NCBI GenBank assembly: GCA_000002445.1
Contig: CM000208.1
Location: 64,001-128,000 of the forward strand
Direction: 5' to 3'
Length of the DNA stretch: 64,000 nt
From: Trypanosoma brucei
Lineage: Eukaryota
This document shows positions 46,053 to 53,729 of the stretch, piece by piece; the first letter of the stretch is position 1; the number at the start of each line of letters is the position of its first letter. A model generated the notes under the pieces. That model saw only the letters and a program-made list of their open reading frames with translations. It did not search any database and was not told where the DNA came from. A program made the position numbers and the translations under genes.

Positions 46053-48782
46053 ATGAACGAAAGTATTATTCAAGTGCCACTTTATGTATCCACATCAGCT
46101 TGGCGTAAGGAGGTACAACTGAGAGGCCTCTTGCGCAATCACCCGAGTATAATTGCACACAGTGATATTCTCCCACCTGCTACCACGGCCAAAGTTTTCA
46201 GCACAGCTCAGTTGGCAGCACACCACAGGGAAAATGTATTGGCTATTGGTTTAAATCCATTATCCACTTCAGGCGCTTGCGTTGGGCTCTTAACAATGGA
46301 AAGTGCGGAGGCAAAACTTAGTGGTATGTCAAAGATGCAGTGGTTGAATTTGCCATCAACCGAACCTTTGAGCAGCGTGGAATGGTGTGAGGGATCCCTT
46401 TTGGTTGGAACTAGTCGTGGTCGCATTGTTGTAGCAGATGTTAGTCCACAAACTGTTGAGGATTCTGATGGAGAATTGCAGCGTCGCACTTGCCTCGTAT
46501 GTAGTGAAGAGCAAACTCCTGTTGGAGACATAGTTGTGCCACCAAGCAAACATGCCGTGTCAACTCTTGTTCGGTGTGTGCGCAGTAACGCAGCCGTCTG
46601 TTCCTCAAGTGTGGTGGCGGTATGTGATAGTCGCGCAATGGTGTGGGATGTAAAGGGAGCTACACAACCTGTACATACGTGGGTTCCCAGTGTAGACAGC
46701 AGTAAAAATAGTCCAAATGAGCAGGAGCCTCTTTTGTTTGCACAATGGGTTCCAAACAGTGACTCTGTTGTACTCACTGGAAGCTACAGTGGTAGTCTTG
46801 TATTCACAGACATTCGCACCAAAGAGGGATCCACCTCCAAATTATCCCTTCCGGCCCGTCGAGGATGTATGGCTCGGTGTGCCGACTTTAACACATTGCT
46901 TCCATTTGCTCTTGCTACGGCATCTTCTGACGGTATCATTTCTGTATTTGATTGCCGGTATCCGAGCACTGCCGTCCGAACCATCCCCTCGTTGCACGGC
47001 GATATCATGTCTCTAAAGTATTTGAAGCTTCATTCAGACATTATTGCCACGGGTGGGGTTGACGGATCGGTGGTTTTGTGGAATCTTCGCTCTCTTCCAA
47101 CCTATCGCGTGGGTCGTGCGCAATACAAGTGCCCCGTTTTTGATCTTATTACAACTCCATGGTCTGTGGAGCAACATGTTATTGGTGTTACATGTGGTGG
47201 TGAATTGACTCTCACAGGTCTTGCGCAGGAGGCCATGGCAACGTTAGCCGTGCCAGTCACTGAGCGCCTTTCCAAACCATCTGGTCGTAGACAAGAGGAT
47301 AAAACCGCGGCAAATGAGGCGACAGAACTAATGGAACGTGAAAAATATGGTGTGGGTCTCCTGTATTCCCGTCGGTTACGTGAGGCATATGAAGTGATTG
47401 TCGATTGCGCTACAAAGCGCTTTGCGAGAAAGGAGATTACGATGGCAATGAGGTTAGCGGGTCTCCTGGACGTCAAAATGCTTCCGAAATTTGACTACAG
47501 GGCGAAGGTTGAGAGTTTTGAAGCGGAGGAGAAGTGCAAGCGTGAATTAGGTGTGGCGGCTTTGTCGCAGTCGCAAGTAATTGTAGCTTTTGAAGATGCA
47601 CTTGTCCGTTCGAGTCAGTGGCTCTTTCCATCACTTCTGTCTGAAAATATACGAGATCTTCAGAAGCCCGCCAAGCAAGATGTTACAAAACTGGAGGCGT
47701 TGCAATTGAATTTGCTTTTGCATAACAATATTGCTTCCGGGTGTATTGGAAGCGTCGTTGGTGGATTGCAGTATTTCATTGCTAATGGTGGGAATATTAG
47801 TCTTATAGATGCCAATACGGCATGCAGCATCGCAAAGAAATTGTTGGAAGTGAACGTTGCTGAAGGTCAAAAATTTGTGTCAACGTTGCTTTCGTTGGTG
47901 ATTGAACCTGATGGTACTGCTGTAGCCGATGCGCTTGCGAAACGTTTGCTCATAGTGGTTCAGGAGCCACTTGTTACGGCAGGGATGCCGGTACGCCAAG
48001 CAGGAAGACATGAGGAACTTTTTGTATCTGATTTGCTGAGCGCGAAGAGGGCAGTCGAAGTGCAAATGGAGATTCGAAGTTTAGGGATCGAAAACTACAA
48101 AGGAGTAATTGCTGCGGTGAACAAATATCAAGACCAATGTCTCAGAAATGGTGAGAGCGGCATATTTGGCTGGCTTGCTCAGGAACCGCTGATGCTATTT
48201 TTGAACTGCCTCACTGCAGACTCAAATTATGCTACATTTTTCTGGGCGTGTGTACAACTAATTGAGGCGCTGGCCGCGTGTCCGGGTATGCGAGAGGTTG
48301 AGGCTACACTCTTTGCTACAGTGAACAGCATCCACGTTGCTTCTAATCGCCTCCGAAGCCAACTGCAGGAGTTGGCTTCAAAACCGCGTTTTACCCCAGC
48401 GACAGTGCGAGAGGCGGGGAAAACTATAACAACAGTTCTCGACTTCTCTGTTGTCCTTCTTCGTGTTCAGTTGGAGTGCGAGAATGTTGCTCATGAAAGT
48501 GAAATGAGAACTGTACCACCCGTTATGTGTCGCATATTTGATATTTTGTCGTCAGCCTCATCAGACTTGCTGAAAGTGTGGGAAACAATTCTCGGTGTCT
48601 TGGTGGCGTGTCCCCTTCGCAGTCTTGTGCGAAAATGTTGCCTCACTGGAATGCGTAACTTTGCCCTGAAGGTGGAAGGCCTTCTTTCGCTTTCATCGAA
48701 GAAAGGCGGTGACGAAATGTTAAATGAAATACTCGACACATGTGACGAGTTCTTTGACAGAGTTGCTGAAGATGCTGATTGA
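46053..48782 (+). CDS. WD40-repeat protein (909 aa) with an N-terminal beta-propeller and a C-terminal alpha-solenoid
   Basis: WD-like segments ('IATGGVDGSVVLWNL', 'LATASSDGIISVFDCR', 'LLVGTSRGRIVVADV'), followed by about 450 aa of helical Leu/Ala-rich sequence. ATG verified at 46053. Confidence 0.65.
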   Translation: MNESIIQVPLYVSTSAWRKEVQLRGLLRNHPSIIAHSDILPPATTAKVFSTAQLAAHHRENVLAIGLNPLSTSGACVGLLTMESAEAKLSGMSKMQWLNLPSTEPLSSVEWCEGSLLVGTSRGRIVVADVSPQTVEDSDGELQRRTCLVCSEEQTPVGDIVVPPSKHAVSTLVRCVRSNAAVCSSSVVAVCDSRAMVWDVKGATQPVHTWVPSVDSSKNSPNEQEPLLFAQWVPNSDSVVLTGSYSGSLVFTDIRTKEGSTSKLSLPARRGCMARCADFNTLLPFALATASSDGIISVFDCRYPSTAVRTIPSLHGDIMSLKYLKLHSDIIATGGVDGSVVLWNLRSLPTYRVGRAQYKCPVFDLITTPWSVEQHVIGVTCGGELTLTGLAQEAMATLAVPVTERLSKPSGRRQEDKTAANEATELMEREKYGVGLLYSRRLREAYEVIVDCATKRFARKEITMAMRLAGLLDVKMLPKFDYRAKVESFEAEEKCKRELGVAALSQSQVIVAFEDALVRSSQWLFPSLLSENIRDLQKPAKQDVTKLEALQLNLLLHNNIASGCIGSVVGGLQYFIANGGNISLIDANTACSIAKKLLEVNVAEGQKFVSTLLSLVIEPDGTAVADALAKRLLIVVQEPLVTAGMPVRQAGRHEELFVSDLLSAKRAVEVQMEIRSLGIENYKGVIAAVNKYQDQCLRNGESGIFGWLAQEPLMLFLNCLTADSNYATFFWACVQLIEALAACPGMREVEATLFATVNSIHVASNRLRSQLQELASKPRFTPATVREAGKTITTVLDFSVVLLRVQLECENVAHESEMRTVPPVMCRIFDILSSASSDLLKVWETILGVLVACPLRSLVRKCCLTGMRNFALKVEGLLSLSSKKGGDEMLNEILDTCDEFFDRVAEDAD

Positions 48783-49158
48783 GTTCTAAAAGTTCATATT
48801 TGCCCTTCGTAGGTGTTCGGCGTCAAAGGCAGTTCCAATCCCACAGTGAGGGGAATGTTACCGTATTCGATTCCTTGATTCGATTTTTTTTTTTTGTGTG
48901 TGTGTGTGTCAGGGGAGGGGGGCGCTCTCTACGCTGTTCCTCATCCTTTACTGCCACTTTCTCCCCCGCATATTCCTCTTTTTTTTCTTTTTCCTCGTTT
49001 TCTTGGTTGGTGGAAACTGTTTCCTAATGTAAAGACTTACAGTAGCATTTGTAAATATAATTAATTAACGTGCTTTTTTTTGTGTGTGTGTGCGGTCACA
49101 CGCGTTGAGGCGTAAGGTGCATTCAGATTAGGGCGTTACGGACCATTAAACCGTCCAT

Positions 49159-50280
49159 ATGCGGGTAGCATCTTTTAGGGCATCTCTTGCTTCCTTCAGC
49201 TTTCACACCCGGTTTTACGCAGCCGGAAAGCCGGGGGTTCCGAGAGCTGGTTTTAAGGCACACGGGGATATTGGCGATGGCCGCAACGACCAACAGCAGT
49301 TGCAAAGTGCGAATCCATACAAATCACGGGAACACATGAACCACAAATGGTTAATTCTTATGTGCGTCGGCTGTTTAGCGGGGGGTTCAGCAGCGGGTCA
49401 CCTTACGGAGGTTGATGAAACTGCACTGAAACCACCTTTTAAGAAGTCGGATGTGCTTTCAAATATTTCCAAAACATTTGAATTCCGTCCTGACCTGGCA
49501 GCAATGGGTGTTCGTGTTGCGTTTCTTCTTGCTGCGCGCAGAGCAGGACTTACAACTGACTCCTTTGATGAGTCTTGCGCCGTTGCCCGTGGCCTTGAAG
49601 ACATCGCCGGAGTATTTCAGCAGCTTGGGACAATGTATCACATTTCAACTGAAGACGCCGCATCGCTGGTAGCTGTGGCTGCATTAAAGTTCTTAAAGGC
49701 CCCTTCTGAATCTATTGAAAATGCGTGGCGTTGGGGACGAAATGACACCGATGAGGCCCCACCGCGGAGGCGAAGAAATGATGAGAAATTCCCCGTAGAG
49801 GCCTCAGGTGTGCAGAGTTTACTTAAGGGGTTATGTGATCTCACTGATGCTGAGTGCGTAGCGTTGTTAGCATGCCACAGTGTTGGTGAATTTCACGAAC
49901 ACGTGAGTGGCTTGGACGGTGCCACACATATCGGGAGCCGTTACAAGCTAAGTAATGAGTATTATAAGTTTTTGTTGTCAAATGAGAAGCGTTTCTTCGA
50001 TCTTGAAGTTCCTAGGACGGAGGAAAATAAAGAAATACGTCGCCTACCGAAGAACTTTGTATGTGTTTATGCCAGCACTGGCAAGAGAGGAAAAAAAAAA
50101 CAGTGCGTTTTCAATAGGAGCGAGGTGGATGCCATTTTGAAGAATAGTACGTGGCGGAAACTTGCCGAGTACTACGCGGAGAACGAAGCGGCATGGGCCG
50201 AGGCATTCCAGTCGGGTTTCACAAAAATGATTGACAGTAATTTCAAGAGGTTGCGCCCATACGACGCATCAACAGATTAG
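49159..50280 (+). CDS. Class-I heme peroxidase-like (ascorbate-peroxidase family) pseudoperoxidase with an N-terminal membrane anchor
   Basis: Aligns with plant APX: 'LTDAECVALLACHSVGEFHEHVSG' vs '[24 protein letters not shown]' (proximal His retained); 'NEYYKFLLSNEK' vs 'DNSYFTELLSGEK'; 'RWGRNDTDEAPP' vs 'HPGREDKPEPPP'. The distal 'RLAWHSAGT' is replaced by 'RVAFLLAARRAG' (W-H to F-L). Hydrophobic 'WLILMCVGCLAGGSAAG' near the N-terminus. The start could instead be the internal Met at residue 60. Confidence 0.65.
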   Translation: MRVASFRASLASFSFHTRFYAAGKPGVPRAGFKAHGDIGDGRNDQQQLQSANPYKSREHMNHKWLILMCVGCLAGGSAAGHLTEVDETALKPPFKKSDVLSNISKTFEFRPDLAAMGVRVAFLLAARRAGLTTDSFDESCAVARGLEDIAGVFQQLGTMYHISTEDAASLVAVAALKFLKAPSESIENAWRWGRNDTDEAPPRRRRNDEKFPVEASGVQSLLKGLCDLTDAECVALLACHSVGEFHEHVSGLDGATHIGSRYKLSNEYYKFLLSNEKRFFDLEVPRTEENKEIRRLPKNFVCVYASTGKRGKKKQCVFNRSEVDAILKNSTWRKLAEYYAENEAAWAEAFQSGFTKMIDSNFKRLRPYDASTD

Positions 50281-50591: not shown

Positions 50592-50996
50592 ATGTCCAAC
50601 CGAGGCTTTACCCCGCGTGCCATTATTCCACCAGCGGCACCTTCAAGCAGAGATAAGAGACCTGCAGGAGCACCATATGGAAAGAATTTAAACAACGCAA
50701 AGGCGACGGTGCCTGCACAGCAGCGGGTTCAGGGTTTAAAACAGAACCAACCGGCAAATAGTCATCCCCTTCCATGCGAGTCTTGCAGGGAACTTATGAA
50801 GTGCACACAAGACGCCCGACAGGCGTTAGAAAAAGTTTTACAAAATGCTCGAATGATATTTCTGGATGACACGCTGCACCATCAAATGGATGATGAGCGT
50901 TGGTTGCGGGTTCTACGAGCACTTGGTGGAAATAAGAGGGAATACTTTACGAGAATTCCTTCAAATTGCTTAACTGCTACGGATGCAACTCTTTGA
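50592..50996 (+). CDS. Small basic hypothetical protein (134 aa)
   Basis: ATG at 50592 after a polypyrimidine tract; the track ORF 50403 begins in low-complexity sequence. No motif recognised. Confidence 0.4.
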   Translation: MSNRGFTPRAIIPPAAPSSRDKRPAGAPYGKNLNNAKATVPAQQRVQGLKQNQPANSHPLPCESCRELMKCTQDARQALEKVLQNARMIFLDDTLHHQMDDERWLRVLRALGGNKREYFTRIPSNCLTATDATL

Positions 50997-51803: not shown

Positions 51804-53729
51804 ATGCCCGAGGCGTATATTGAGGAAACACAAAGTAAACTGGGGGCTGTTATTAGTTCCCCAAAGTTATCTGAGAAACTCCTTTTGAAACCTCCTTTCC
51901 GTTTTTTGCATGACATTGTCACCAGTTTTATTAAAGCAACTGGGTTCCCTGATGGTTTATATCCCGAAGATATGCTTGACAGTGCAAATGTATCCGATAA
52001 AGAAAAGAAGATACAATTCCTTAGTCTCCTTATTGCGGCCGTTGAGTCGGCAACGGGTTCAAAGGTGTCAGCCAATCCTTCTAAAATTGTCGCGGGACAT
52101 GAACCTGAGCAAACAAACGAATTACTTCAGTTACTTGCTTCTTGCGCTGCACTTCCGTCGGATAAAAAGGCAGCGGCCGTAAAGGCAGCAAAAAGTGCGG
52201 GAGACGCTACGAAATCATCAAGCAGCAAAGGCGGGGACGACGACGAGAAGCGCAAGCGACGCGAAGAAGAAAAGAAGAAACGAAAGGAAGAGGAAGGTGA
52301 TGGTGAAAAGAAGAAACATAAGGAAGAAGACGGCGAGAAAAAGAAGCACAAGGAGGAAGACGGCGAAAAGAAAAAACATAGGGAAGAGGATGGAGAAAGG
52401 AAGAAGCATAAAGAAGAGGACAGTGAGAAGAAGAAACGCAAGGAAGGAGAAGGGGAAGAAAAGAAGAAACATAAGGAAGAAGATGGTGAGAAAAAGAAAC
52501 GAAAAGAGGAGGAGGGAGACGGTGAAAAGAAAAAGCATAGAGACGAAGATGGAGAAAAGAAAAAGCATCGGGAGGATGATGGAGAAAGAAAGAAGCGAAA
52601 GGAAGAGGAAGGTGATGGTGAAAAGAAGAAACACAAGGAAGAAGATGGCGAGAAGAAGAAACGAAAAGAGGAGGAGGGAGACGAGAAGAAAAAACATAGG
52701 GAAGACGAAAGTGAGAGAAAGAAACGAAAGGAGGAAGATGGAGAGAAAAAGAAACGAAAAGAGGAAGAAGGAGAGAAAAAGAAACGGAAGGAGGAGGATG
52801 GTGATGGTGAAAAGAAGAAACGTAGGGACGAGGATGATGAGGAACGCCGTAGGAGACATGAAGAGAGGAAGCGACAAGAAAAGAAAGCTGCTGAGCAGGC
52901 GCAAGGTAGTGCCGGAGCTGAGCCATCTGAAGGTAAGGGTGCGGATGGTACTACAGAAGGTGCTACTGGCCAACAGCAATTACCAACACGTCAGCTTATC
53001 CGCAAATCGTCTGCGGGGAAAGCGCCACCACGTTCGAAGGCTTCGCACGAAGTTGTTGCTGATGATGGTAGTTCTGCAAATGTTGCTGAAGTGATCCGTG
53101 AGACGAAGCGTGGTGCTGCCGGGGAGGGTTCTAAAGAAGATGGAGAGGAAAATGATTGGATGCGTGTCGCTGAGCAACAGGCCGCACGACCAACGAAAGA
53201 CAGTGACGGCACTTTACAAGATGGTGAGGCAAAGGGATATCTCGGCCAGCAGGCTTTGCGAGCGAAGCGGGAGCAAGAAGAAGAGACCGCGCGTCTGGCG
53301 CAGGATGGTGGTGCACGAGGTCCTCGAGAGGGCGGTATTATTATTCACAGCAACAGGGCTGGTAAGAGCGGTGGCACCATGGCGGAGGGCGAACTCAGCA
53401 AACTTCGGCAACAACTTCAACTGTTGACGAAAGCTTCTAATCCTCTTGGAAAACTTTTGGAGTCGATTCACGATGACATCGACACAATGGGGCGGGAATT
53501 GGAAATGTGGAGATCGGAGGCACGCAGCCAGGCGCTTGCTGCTGCTGATGCACGCCGGCAAACAACAGAAAGTCTTCAGGAGGTACACGCCCAACTGCAG
53601 GCTCTAGAAGACGCTATAAGTGATCAAATATTGAAAAACCATAACATACGGCGCAATATCATCAGTAACGACAATGCCATTGCTGGAATGGTCCGCATGT
53701 TTGTTAATCCCGATGCCCTTACCCGTTAG
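51804..53729 (+). CDS. IFT54: Intraflagellar transport protein IFT54 (TRAF3IP1/MIP-T3 homolog), with an expanded K/E/D-rich tandem-repeat linker
   Basis: N-terminus '[33 protein letters not shown]...[15 protein letters not shown]...[21 protein letters not shown]' closely matches MIP-T3 '[32 protein letters not shown]...AKISFLQKAIDVV...[21 protein letters not shown]'. C-terminal coiled coil, and a central repeat '[12 protein letters not shown]' about 15 times. ATG verified at 51804. Confidence 0.85.
   Translation: [641 protein letters not shown]
52236..52884 (+). repeat. In-frame tandem repeat (about 36-nt unit, about 15 copies) encoding (K/R)EE(D/E)GEKKK(H/R)KE inside IFT54
   Basis: Near-identical 'aaggaagaagacggcgagaaaaagaagcacaagg' units are visible directly. 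They generate the spurious long S/F/L-rich ORFs on the minus strand (52127-52979). Confidence 0.85.

What the first reader, a model, noticed from the sequence alone, without database searches (positions are those of the whole stretch)
49159..50280. Ascorbate-peroxidase-fold protein lacking the distal catalytic His/Trp (a pseudoperoxidase), with a membrane anchor
The C-terminal two-thirds aligns block by block with plant class-I peroxidases: proximal-His region 'LLACHSVGEFHEH' against '[13 protein letters not shown]', plus 'RWGRNDTDEAPP' and 'NEYYKFLLSNEK'. Where APX has the distal 'RLAWHSAGT', this protein has 'RVAFLLAARRAG' (W to F, H to L). The proximal-pocket Trp position ('EGPWTSNP') is 'DGATHIGS'. 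A hydrophobic segment (WLILMCVGCLAGG) near the N-terminus suggests membrane anchoring or secretory-pathway targeting. The heme-binding scaffold is retained without the canonical peroxide-activating residues, suggesting heme sensing or binding, peroxynitrite handling, or heme ligation by an alternative residue (the Cys in 'ACHSVG'), rather than ordinary H2O2 reduction.
Basis: partly seen in the sequence, partly recalled or inferred. Interest (0 to 1): 0.55.

Follow-up and report, generated by a model that had tools for sequence, protein, structure and literature searches.

The report
Trypanosome haem pseudoperoxidase, LmPP orthologue

Summary
ORF 49159-50280 (+) encodes 373 aa and contains every quoted motif. 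The window is T. brucei brucei TREU927 chromosome 10. The protein is exactly XP_822303.1 / Q38CJ5 / Tb927.10.430, annotated "hypothetical protein, conserved".

It is the syntenic orthologue of Leishmania major pseudoperoxidase (LmPP, PDB 5VIA): sequence E=1.7e-99, and model-to-structure TM 0.91 at 54% identity. APX/CcP match only at E~1e-5.

The distal His is Leu123 and the distal Trp is Phe122. The distal Arg119 and proximal His240 are kept.

The sixth haem ligand is inferred to be Cys140 (DESCAV, = LmPP Cys107). It is invariant in 38 orthologues.

The N-terminus is a mitochondrial presequence followed by a highly conserved juxtamembrane motif and one TM helix. Published proteomics places Tb927.10.430 in T. 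brucei mitochondria and shows it falls on ATOM40 knockdown. Secretory targeting is therefore not supported.

The best reading is a six-coordinate Cys/His haem protein tethered to a mitochondrial membrane that acts by ligand or redox switching, not H2O2 reduction. Its physiological role is still open.

It is a new, unstudied member of a known kind, of modest interest.

The parts
49159..50280 (+). Complete CDS of Tb927.10.430 (373 aa plus stop), the T. brucei orthologue of Leishmania major pseudoperoxidase
   Evidence: ORF list and translation. Exact identity to XP_822303.1/EAN77475.1/Q38CJ5. Q38CJ5 = Tb927.10.430 in Peikert 2017 supplements. 5VIA E=1.7e-99.
49159..49251 (+). N-terminal extension, aa 1-31: mitochondrial presequence-like (5 R/K, 0 D/E), with an R-3-type site R18-F-Y20|A21
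   Evidence: About 30 orthologues carry a 28-85 aa extension with no conserved sequence but conserved composition: R/K-rich, S/T/A-rich, 0-2 acidic residues. TargetP-positive in Peikert 2017 Suppl. Data 2a. The cleavage site is inferred, not shown.
49252..49347 (+). Conserved juxtamembrane module, aa 32-63: family consensus FxAPPNVGPGR ... ANPYKSWEHxNHK. The ANPYKSWEH part is highly conserved. TREU927 carries R57 where the family has W.
   Evidence: Alignment columns. Mean conservation is 0.82 for aa 51-63 against 0.69 for the globular domain. R57 and H16 are TREU927-specific among six T. brucei s.l. sequences. This module is absent from the crystallised construct (P0032 starts at FVEVDE).
49348..49404 (+). 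Single transmembrane helix, aa 64-82 (WLILMCVGCLAGGSAAGHL), with near-invariant C69-x-x-C72 and small-residue (G71/G76/A79/G80) positions
   Evidence: Best hydropathy window. AF2 helix 62-82, pLDDT about 81. Near-invariant W64 C69 G71 C72 L73 G76 A79 G80. Flanks are basic on the N side and acidic on the C side.
49405..50265 (+). Class-I-peroxidase-fold haem domain, aa 83-369
   Evidence: phmmer to 5VIA covers aa 83-369. Foldseek 5VIA TM 0.91. hhalign to APX probability 98.4%.
49477..49548 (+). Distal helix, aa 107-130 (FEFRPDLAAMGVRVAFLLAARRAG): Arg119 kept, Phe122 for Trp, Leu123 for the catalytic His. No His anywhere in this helix.
   Evidence: MAFFT alignment with verified APX/CcP. R110 P111 D112 R119 F122 A125 A126 R127 R128 G130 are invariant in 38 sequences. 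This is the most conserved block of the protein, 0.93.
49576..49578 (+). Cys140 codon (DESCAV): inferred distal (sixth) haem ligand, equivalent to LmPP Cys107
   Evidence: Invariant in 38 orthologues. Present in nearly all more distant representatives that share the distal-helix signature (RPD..R..F with no distal His), down to E~1e-36; the exceptions in that range are P0049 (Gln) and P0051 (gap). Residue 107 of the 341-aa Leishmania numbering is this Cys. The axial-ligand paper for LmPP is cited. The residue numbers themselves are from my own recollection.
49876..49878 (+). His240 codon (ACHSVG): proximal haem ligand, equivalent to APX His163 and LmPP His206
   Evidence: Invariant across the family, APX and CcP. 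Residue 206 of the Leishmania numbering.
49894..49896 (+). His246 codon: aligns with the conserved His six residues after the proximal His of APX/CcP (CcP His181, a haem-propionate contact, from my own knowledge)
   Evidence: Invariant column.
50050..50118 (+). Family-specific beta-hairpin insertion, aa 298-320, absent from APX, with Cys302 and invariant Cys316
   Evidence: Gap in APX/CcP rows. AF2 strands 300-306 and 313-319. C316 invariant.
50122..50124 (+). Glu322 codon: invariant acidic residue that probably replaces the proximal Asp (APX D208 / CcP D235)
   Evidence: Invariant. Canonical peroxidases place Asp in this profile column. hhalign leaves the register ambiguous, so this is inconclusive.
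48973..49130 (+). Upstream polypyrimidine tract (48973-48996) and downstream AG dinucleotides (49033-49130): candidate trans-splicing signals for this gene
   Evidence: Sequence and pattern scan. Inference from general trypanosomatid gene structure; the splice site was not mapped.

Best explanation
The ORF is Tb927.10.430, the positional orthologue in Trypanosoma brucei of Leishmania major pseudoperoxidase (LmPP).

Shown here:
- The domain has the class-I peroxidase fold.
- It keeps the haem-holding residues: proximal His240, distal Arg119, His246, and an invariant acidic Glu322.
- It has Leu where the distal acid-base His should be and Phe/Thr where the two Trp should be.
- Cys140, in a shortened loop after the distal helix, is invariant.

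Inferred from LmPP:
- Cys140 thiolate and His240 are the two axial ligands of a six-coordinate low-spin haem b.
- With the sixth site occupied and no distal base, H2O2 cannot be bound and cleaved, so the protein is not a working peroxidase.
- Whatever it does must go through displacement of the Cys ligand, either on haem reduction or by a small ligand or oxidant such as NO or peroxynitrite. That makes it a switch or scavenger type of haem protein.

Localisation, shown by sequence and by published T. brucei proteomics:
- The protein carries an N-terminal mitochondrial presequence, a strongly conserved juxtamembrane motif and one TM helix.
- It is found in mitochondria and decreases when the import pore ATOM40 is depleted.

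Inferred topology: the haem domain is tethered to the inner membrane, probably facing the intermembrane space (basic N-flank toward the matrix, acidic C-flank). This resembles CcP and Leishmania peroxidase.

The physiological role is not established. I favour a redox or small-ligand responsive haem protein over a dedicated anti-host peroxynitrite enzyme.
For: Identity:
- Exact match to XP_822303.1/Q38CJ5, which is Tb927.10.430.
- The neighbours match published IDs: Tb927.10.410 F-box.420 Exo99.460 Nek kinase.

Orthology to LmPP:
- 5VIA E=1.7e-99.
- Foldseek E=3.9e-29, TM 0.91, 54% identity.
- Identical gene order WD40 / this gene / small ORF / MIP-T3 / Nek kinase in Leishmania martiniquensis.

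Catalytic residues: (alignment with APX/CcP), with the reference sequences verified.

Ligands:
- C140 and H240 are invariant in 38 sequences and in nearly all distant representatives carrying the same distal-helix signature.
- They fall on residues 107 and 206 of the Leishmania numbering.
- LmPP is cited as a His/Cys haem protein of unclear purpose, in a class whose other members are redox sensors or regulators.

Mitochondrial location:
- Presequence composition in about 30 orthologues.
- Member of the mitochondrial reference set, with earlier mitochondrial proteome evidence and a positive TargetP call.
- ATOM40 RNAi fold change 0.66 (p=0.019, whole cells) and 0.68 (p=0.0075, organelle fraction; 18 peptides, 43% coverage).
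- Unaffected by PEX14 RNAi: 0.86, p=0.22.

Not parasite-specific:
- Orthologues occur in insect-only trypanosomatids: Leptomonas, Angomonas, Strigomonas, Novymonas.
- Members also occur in environmental metagenome contigs.
Against: - No haem, spectrum or activity was measured for the T. brucei protein. The Cys/His ligation is transferred from LmPP by homology.
- The residue numbers and the 5VIA conclusions are partly from my memory, because the primary papers are not in the held library.
- The AF2 model is least confident exactly around the Cys140 loop: pLDDT 59-70 for aa 131-150.
- The profile-profile alignment to APX does not cover the distal helix.
- The ATOM40-knockdown ratios (log2 -0.55 and -0.60) are just short of the -0.62 threshold the authors applied to their gradient-purified data set. 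The row for that data set is not in the stored part of the file, so formal importome membership is unknown.
- MitoFates did not call a presequence.
- From memory, the 2012 LmPP paper localised the Leishmania protein to the flagellar-pocket region, which would disagree with a mitochondrial location.
- Intermembrane-space topology is inferred from charge distribution only.
Confidence: 0.82

Rival explanations
1. It is a dedicated peroxynitrite-detoxifying enzyme (isomerase or decomposer) protecting the parasite against host reactive nitrogen species, as originally proposed for LmPP.
For: The published claim for the orthologue: LmPP decomposes peroxynitrite at moderate rates without a reductant and favours infection (summarised in PMC12398798, and PMC12285341, both citing Bose et al. 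2012).
Against: - The family is conserved, with the same invariant residues, in monoxenous insect trypanosomatids and in sequences from environmental metagenomes that never meet macrophages.
- In T. brucei the protein is mitochondrial and abundant in the procyclic (insect) form used for the proteomics.
- From memory, the 2017 5VIA structure paper concluded that peroxynitrite is not a catalytic substrate.
- The TsdA paper lists LmPP as a His/Cys haem of unclear purpose.
Confidence: 0.15
2. It is still a working haem peroxidase that uses non-canonical distal residues (for example Arg119 with another base) to reduce H2O2.
For: Pfam peroxidase hit. Distal Arg119, proximal His240 and an acidic partner are retained. 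T. equiperdum and several other orthologues are auto-annotated 'peroxidase'.
Against: - There is no His in the distal helix. Leu/Val/Ile occupies the catalytic position in nearly all family members.
- Both Trp are lost.
- Invariant Cys140 corresponds to the residue reported to occupy the sixth coordination site in LmPP.
- The characterised orthologue is named a pseudoperoxidase in the PDB.
Confidence: 0.04
3. It is a haem-free pseudoenzyme or a decaying relic in T. brucei, which has lost its canonical ascorbate/cytochrome c peroxidase.
For: - A recent review-style statement says haem peroxidases are absent from T. brucei.
- The TREU927 allele carries substitutions at two nearly invariant positions, W57R and D342N.
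- 6 of 8 nucleotide differences to another T. brucei s.l. sequence are non-synonymous.
Against: - The 373-aa ORF is intact in six T. brucei s.l. sequences.
- All 42 family-invariant positions, including both ligands, are kept.
- The protein is detected with 13-18 peptides at 40-43% coverage.
- The orthologue crystallised with the name pseudoperoxidase and is treated in the literature as a haem protein.
Confidence: 0.04
4. It is a type II membrane protein of the secretory or endocytic system (flagellar pocket), with the haem domain luminal or extracellular, as the first reader's 'secretory-pathway targeting' suggests.
For: A single TM helix about 64 residues from the N-terminus could act as a signal anchor. 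My recollection, unverified here, is that LmPP was immunolocalised near the flagellar pocket.
Against: - Presequence-like N-termini are found throughout the family.
- TargetP is positive, the protein is in earlier mitochondrial proteomes, and it shows an ATOM40-dependent decrease in T. brucei.
- The LmPP work appears to have used the 341-aa gene model, which lacks the 64-aa upstream extension present in other Leishmania annotations. Compare P0018 with P0011/P0015.
Confidence: 0.08

Closest known systems
Leishmania major pseudoperoxidase, LmPP (PDB 5VIA; Bose et al. 2012, Saha et al. 2013)
   Same: Orthologue: 54-55% identity over the whole globular domain, E=1.7e-99, TM 0.91, and the same chromosomal neighbourhood. 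It has the same substitutions of the distal His and Trp, the same invariant Cys and His at the positions numbered 107 and 206 in LmPP, and the same beta-hairpin insertion.
   Different: - The T. brucei protein has never been studied biochemically. There is no main-text mention of Tb927.10.430 in the held library.
- Leu rather than Val occupies the distal-His position.
- The juxtamembrane FxAPPNVGPGR motif has diverged to FKAHGDIGDGR.
- The host organism lacks the canonical APX/CcP-type enzyme and is extracellular.
- The crystallised LmPP lacks the presequence, the conserved juxtamembrane motif and the TM helix.
Class I haem peroxidases: plant ascorbate peroxidase, yeast cytochrome c peroxidase, Leishmania major peroxidase (3RIV), T. 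cruzi APx-CcP (7OPT/7OQR)
   Same: Same fold (TM 0.6-0.76). Shares the proximal His, distal Arg, the GR.D loop and the C-terminal helices. Like CcP and LmP (own knowledge), it is a mitochondrial protein with an N-terminal targeting and anchor region.
   Different: Only 17-21% identity. Distal His becomes Leu, distal Trp becomes Phe, proximal Trp becomes Thr. About 10 residues are deleted after the distal helix, which brings in a Cys ligand. A 20-residue hairpin is inserted. It is expected to have no peroxidase cycle.
His/Cys-ligated haem sensor and regulator proteins (CBS, CooA, Rev-erb-beta/E75, and others)
   Same: The same rare axial ligand pair. In these proteins thiolate loss on reduction or ligand binding is the working switch. 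Reported potentials are -350 to -160 mV (PMC6879331).
   Different: Unrelated folds. No output domain or partner is known for the pseudoperoxidase. This is a resemblance in mechanism only, not membership.
Plant APX-like / APX-related proteins (for example thylakoid-lumen TL29/APX4)
   Same: APX-fold proteins that have lost peroxidase catalytic residues (own knowledge, not tested here).
   Different: From my own knowledge these plant proteins do not bind haem. The kinetoplastid family keeps the proximal His, the distal Arg and a Cys ligand. No plant APX-like structure appeared among the top 50 structural matches.

Membership tests
LmPP-type pseudoperoxidase (kinetoplastid) | Class-I peroxidase fold closest to 5VIA | tested here: met
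   phmmer E=1.7e-99. Foldseek E=3.9e-29, TM(target) 0.91, 54% identity.
LmPP-type pseudoperoxidase (kinetoplastid) | Distal catalytic His replaced by an aliphatic residue; distal Trp replaced by Phe | tested here: met
   L123 and F122. Almost all family members with the RPD..R..F signature have an aliphatic residue (V/L/I/A/M) at 123 and Phe at 122 (rarely Leu or Tyr). There is no His in helix 107-130.
LmPP-type pseudoperoxidase (kinetoplastid) | Distal Cys ligand (LmPP Cys107) present | tested here: met
   C140 is invariant in 38 sequences and maps to residue 107 of the 341-aa Leishmania numbering. That it ligates iron in the T. brucei protein is inferred.
LmPP-type pseudoperoxidase (kinetoplastid) | Proximal His ligand (LmPP His206) present | tested here: met
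   H240 is invariant and maps to residue 206.
LmPP-type pseudoperoxidase (kinetoplastid) | Positional orthology (conserved synteny) | tested here: met
   The order WD40(Exo99) / this gene / small ORF / MIP-T3 / Nek kinase is found both in the window and in L. martiniquensis.
LmPP-type pseudoperoxidase (kinetoplastid) | Six-coordinate low-spin ferric haem; no peroxidase activity | not testable with these tools
   Needs recombinant protein, UV-vis/EPR and activity assays.
Canonical class I haem peroxidase (APX/CcP) | Distal His-Arg pair for H2O2 heterolysis | tested here: not met
   Arg119 is present, but the His position is Leu123.
Canonical class I haem peroxidase (APX/CcP) | Distal Trp (APX W41) and proximal Trp (APX W179 / CcP W191) | tested here: not met
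   F122 and T256.
Canonical class I haem peroxidase (APX/CcP) | Proximal His hydrogen-bonded to a buried Asp | tested here: inconclusive
   H240 is present. Invariant Glu322 sits in the profile column where canonical peroxidases have Asp, but hhalign and MAFFT place APX D208 opposite N299.
Canonical class I haem peroxidase (APX/CcP) | Pfam PF00141 above the gathering threshold | tested here: inconclusive
   27 bits against a cut-off of 27, partial match aa 146-314.
Mitochondrially imported protein of T. brucei | N-terminal presequence and dependence on the ATOM40 import pore | tested here: met
   Presequence composition. TargetP positive, in the mitochondrial reference set, and reduced 0.66-0.68-fold on ATOM40 RNAi with p<0.02. 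Formal membership in the 1,120-protein importome could not be read because the file is cut.

The most novel reading that the evidence does not exclude
The core, ancestral job of this family may not be host peroxynitrite defence at all. It could be a mitochondrial-membrane-tethered Cys/His haem switch: a redox, NO or haem-availability sensor, or a haem-handling factor in haem-auxotrophic kinetoplastids. Its strongly conserved N-terminal module (ANPYKSWEHxNHKW plus a TM helix with CxGC and small-residue packing positions) would dock it to a specific membrane partner. That module was deleted from every LmPP construct studied so far, and the Leishmania gene model used may have been N-terminally truncated. 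This could explain why in vitro work left the function open.
Probability: 0.3. Interest if true: 0.55.

Novelty: new member of a known kind. Interest (0 to 1): 0.3.

Why it matters
The kind of protein is already described, so the finding does not open a new category. It has three modest values.

1. It shows that T. brucei, often said to lack haem peroxidases, keeps an intact, expressed, mitochondrial pseudoperoxidase. This gives a tractable organism (RNAi, tagging, two life stages with very different haem use) for settling the still-open function of LmPP.

2. The conservation pattern argues that the function is not specific to survival in macrophages. The family occurs in insect-only trypanosomatids and in environmental sequences of unknown taxonomy, and always has the same Cys/His pair.

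3. The most conserved non-catalytic part of the protein, the juxtamembrane motif and TM helix, has never been studied and is a concrete lead to a partner.

Tried and rejected
- I tried to read the primary LmPP papers (Bose 2012, Saha 2013, the 2017 structure paper) by DOI and PubMed id. None is held. Searches for 'Chreifi', 'LmPP', '5VIA' and 'pseudo-peroxidase' gave nothing useful. The Cys107/His206 numbering and the 'peroxynitrite is not a substrate' conclusion are therefore marked as my recollection. I cross-checked the numbering against the Leishmania sequence.
- A search for accession numbers of the T. brucei protein in papers found none.
- The held TrypTag and Dejung 2016 supplements contain no entry for Tb927.10.430.
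- Exact-sequence contig look-up for the window protein returned nothing, although the cluster look-up later identified it.
- I considered an internal start at Met60. This was rejected because the upstream region is conserved in composition, and partly in sequence (RFYAA), in other Trypanosoma species that have no Met at that point. The Met60 version is also not in the protein collection.
This was rejected because that position is not conserved.
- I considered functional linkage with neighbouring genes. This was rejected because the neighbours (Exo99, IFT54/MIP-T3, Nek kinase, F-box, PPR, GMC oxidoreductase) are unrelated, as expected in a trypanosomatid polycistron.
- The dN/dS comparison between T. 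brucei alleles has too few differences (8 nt) to interpret.
Full report
**1. The observation**

ORF 49159-50280 on the + strand runs from ATG to TAG and encodes 373 aa. No other ORF of note overlaps it on either strand; only 60-73 aa ORFs do.

The window has all of its large ORFs on the + strand, with T-rich and (TG)n intergenic regions. This is the layout of a trypanosomatid polycistronic unit.

**2. What the protein is**

- Pfam finds only a borderline, partial peroxidase match: PF00141, 27 bits at a cut-off of 27, aa 146-314.
- A search of solved-structure sequences gives one outstanding hit, 5VIA 'Pseudoperoxidase', at E=1.7e-99 across aa 83-369. Ascorbate and cytochrome c peroxidases follow only at E=1e-5 to 1e-6.
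- An AlphaFold2 model built on 38 homologues (mean pLDDT 78) matches 5VIA, 'Leishmania major pseudoperoxidase', with E=3.9e-29, TM 0.91 and 54% identity.
- The canonical trypanosomatid, yeast and plant class-I peroxidases match that model at TM 0.6-0.76 and 17-21% identity.

**3. Whose gene it is**

- The neighbouring kinase is 100% identical to a T. brucei gambiense protein.
- The exact 373-aa sequence is XP_822303.1 / EAN77475.1 / UniProt Q38CJ5 of T. brucei brucei TREU927, 'hypothetical protein, conserved'. Its T. equiperdum counterparts are auto-named 'peroxidase, putative'.
- In the supplements of Peikert et al. 2017, Q38CJ5 is Tb927.10.430 (old name Tb10.70.7900).
- The flanking genes agree with published identifiers: Tb927.10.410 is an F-box protein.420 is the exocyst subunit Exo99 (99 kDa, WD40), and .460 is a Nek-like kinase.
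- The gene order WD40 protein / this gene / small ORF / MIP-T3 (IFT54) / Nek kinase is identical in Leishmania martiniquensis. The window gene is therefore the positional orthologue of the Leishmania pseudoperoxidase gene.

**4. Active-site anatomy**

The MAFFT alignment gives:

| APX residue | Role | Window residue |
|---|---|---|
| Arg38 | distal Arg | Arg119 (kept) |
| Trp41 | distal Trp | Phe122 |
| His42 | distal acid-base His | Leu123 |
| His163 | proximal His | His240 (kept) |
| His six residues after His163 | conserved His | His246 (kept) |
| Trp179 | proximal Trp | Thr256 |

- About ten residues following the distal helix in APX are deleted, and a roughly 20-residue beta-hairpin (aa 298-320) is inserted.
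- A profile-profile comparison confirms homology to APX (probability 98.4%, E=4e-15) but aligns only aa 143-362. The residue-by-residue register in the distal helix therefore rests on MAFFT and on the fold match.
- The conclusion does not depend on that register, because helix 107-130 contains no histidine at all.
- The equivalent of the proximal Asp is uncertain. Invariant Glu322 sits where canonical peroxidases have Asp in the family profile, whereas pairwise alignments put APX Asp208 opposite Asn299.

**5. Which cysteine**

- Across 38 orthologues the invariant residues include R110-P-D-L-A114, R119, F122, A125-A-R-R128, S139, C140, H240, H246, C316 and E322.
- An exhaustive profile search of 1.84 billion representatives found 19 clusters at E<=1e-30. 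Most representatives down to about E=1e-36 that cover the N-terminal part of the domain carry the signature RPD..R..F-[aliphatic] ... C ... H.
It cannot be a conserved ligand.
- In the 341-aa Leishmania numbering, residue 107 is the Cys of DESCAV and residue 206 is the His of ACHSVG. This matches my recollection that LmPP's axial ligands are Cys107 and His206.
- The paper establishing the ligands (Saha et al. 2013) is cited but could not be read.
- PMC6879331 lists LmPP among the rare His/Cys-ligated haems. It remarks that the purpose of the ligation is unclear there, whereas other examples act as redox sensors, receptors or regulators with potentials of -350 to -160 mV.
- I therefore assign Cys140/His240 as the axial pair of the T. 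brucei protein, by homology.

**6. The N-terminal third**

The crystallised LmPP chain begins at FVEVDE, immediately after the hydrophobic helix. Upstream of that point the family has three parts.

- An N-terminal extension of 28-85 aa. It has no conserved sequence, but its composition is constant: R/K-rich, S/T/A-rich, with 0-2 acidic residues in about 30 orthologues. In Trypanosoma it carries an RFY|AA motif that fits an R-3 processing site. That is an inference.
- A conserved motif, FxAPPNVGPGR ... ANPYKSWEHxNHKW.
- A helix, aa 64-82, with near-invariant C69, G71, C72, L73, G76, A79 and G80.

The ANPYKSWEH stretch (0.82) and the helix (0.76) are more conserved than the globular domain (0.69). 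This is more than a passive anchor would need.

Independent experimental evidence for mitochondrial location (Peikert et al. 2017):

- Tb927.10.430 is in the mitochondrial reference set: a TriTrypDB mitochondrial annotation, an earlier mitochondrial proteome, and TargetP positive. MitoFates is negative.
- It was detected with 13-18 peptides at 40-43% coverage.
- It fell to 0.66-fold (p=0.019, whole cells) and 0.68-fold (p=0.0075, organelle-enriched fraction) after ATOM40 knockdown.
- It did not respond to PEX14 knockdown.
- The authors' formal threshold (log2 <= -0.62) applies to a third data set whose stored copy is truncated, so I cannot state whether it is one of their 1,120 importome proteins.

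The 'secretory-pathway targeting' does not. The basic N-flank and acidic C-flank of the helix suggest that the haem domain faces the intermembrane space, as in CcP. This is inference only.

**7. Function**

Published work on LmPP reports decomposition of peroxynitrite and reduced virulence of knockouts, as summarised. Three points argue that this is not the core role.

- Orthologues with the same invariant residues occur in insect-only trypanosomatids.
- Relatives with the same Cys/His pair occur on environmental metagenome contigs.
- The T. brucei protein is readily detected in procyclic cells and in mitochondria.

From memory, the 2017 structure paper also concluded that peroxynitrite is not a catalytic substrate.

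The mechanism I commit to is a six-coordinate Cys/His haem whose chemistry depends on displacement of the thiolate, by reduction or by a small ligand or oxidant, on a membrane-tethered mitochondrial protein. I put about 0.8-0.9 on the identity and ligation, about 0.8 on mitochondrial location, and much less on any specific physiological role.

**8. Comparison and novelty**

- This is a member of the LmPP pseudoperoxidase family. All sequence-testable defining features are met.
- It is not a canonical class-I peroxidase. The distal His and both Trp features were tested and not met.
- It works like the His/Cys haem sensors only in the sense of sharing the ligand pair.
- The T. brucei member itself appears unstudied. 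There is no main-text mention of Tb927.10.430 in the held library.
- One recent paper states that haem peroxidases are absent from T. brucei. For the pseudoperoxidase this is not correct.
- Verdict: a correct reading by the first stage of an already known kind of protein, and a new, uncharacterised member of it. The modest added value is the mitochondrial assignment and the unexplored conserved N-terminal module.

Noticed in passing
window 49327-49329 (codon 57) and 49204-49206 (codon 16): The TREU927 allele has Arg57 and His16. Five other T. brucei s.l. sequences (gambiense, equiperdum, two Logan assemblies) have Trp57 and Tyr16. Trp57 is nearly invariant across the whole kinetoplastid family (KSWEH motif). 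This is either a strain-specific change at a constrained site or a sequencing error in the reference.
   Followed up: partly
window 49348-49404 (aa 64-82) and 49252-49347: The TM helix and the preceding ANPYKSWEHxNHKW motif are more conserved than the enzyme-like domain. They contain a near-invariant C-x-G-C and regularly spaced Gly/Ala residues. This suggests specific helix packing or metal or partner binding. All published LmPP constructs lack this part.
   Followed up: partly
Leishmania orthologues P0011, P0015, P0019 (408 aa) versus P0018 (341 aa); locus L002 8001-9227: Leishmania gene models differ by a 64-aa presequence-like N-terminal extension. The 341-aa model, whose numbering matches LmPP Cys107/His206, starts at an internal Met (MFKAPP...) that does not exist in Trypanosoma. 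The studied LmPP gene model may therefore be N-terminally truncated.
   Followed up: partly
window 50592-50996 (+): A small 134-aa ORF between the pseudoperoxidase and IFT54 has no Pfam match. It is conserved in position and partly in sequence (49% identity over 41 aa, E=2e-13) with a 145-aa gene in Leishmania martiniquensis. It is presumably Tb927.10.440.
   Followed up: partly
window 52263-52828, inside the MIP-T3/IFT54 gene 51804-53729 (+): A long imperfect tandem repeat (periods 30, 66, 96 and 189 nt) encodes a highly charged (EEDGEKKKHK)n linker between the CH-like and C-terminal MIP-T3 domains. It generates spurious long ORFs in other frames and on the opposite strand.
   Followed up: partly
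window 46053-48782 (+): The upstream 909-aa WD40 protein corresponds to Tb927.10.420, published as Exo99, a lineage-specific ninth subunit of the trypanosome exocyst (PMC5256885).
   Followed up: yes
literature: PMC10955670, introduction: The paper states that haem peroxidases (cytochrome c peroxidase, pseudoperoxidase and a third enzyme) are absent from T. brucei. The pseudoperoxidase orthologue is in fact present, intact and detected by mass spectrometry in T. brucei.
   Followed up: yes
representatives P0040-P0050 from the exhaustive search (environmental ENA/JGI contigs): More distant proteins (E 1e-87 to 1e-36, 360-550 aa) mostly keep the RPD..R..F / Cys / His signature (not P0049). They come from unnamed metagenome contigs. 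The Cys/His pseudoperoxidase design may extend beyond trypanosomatids to free-living relatives, but their taxonomy is unknown.
   Followed up: partly
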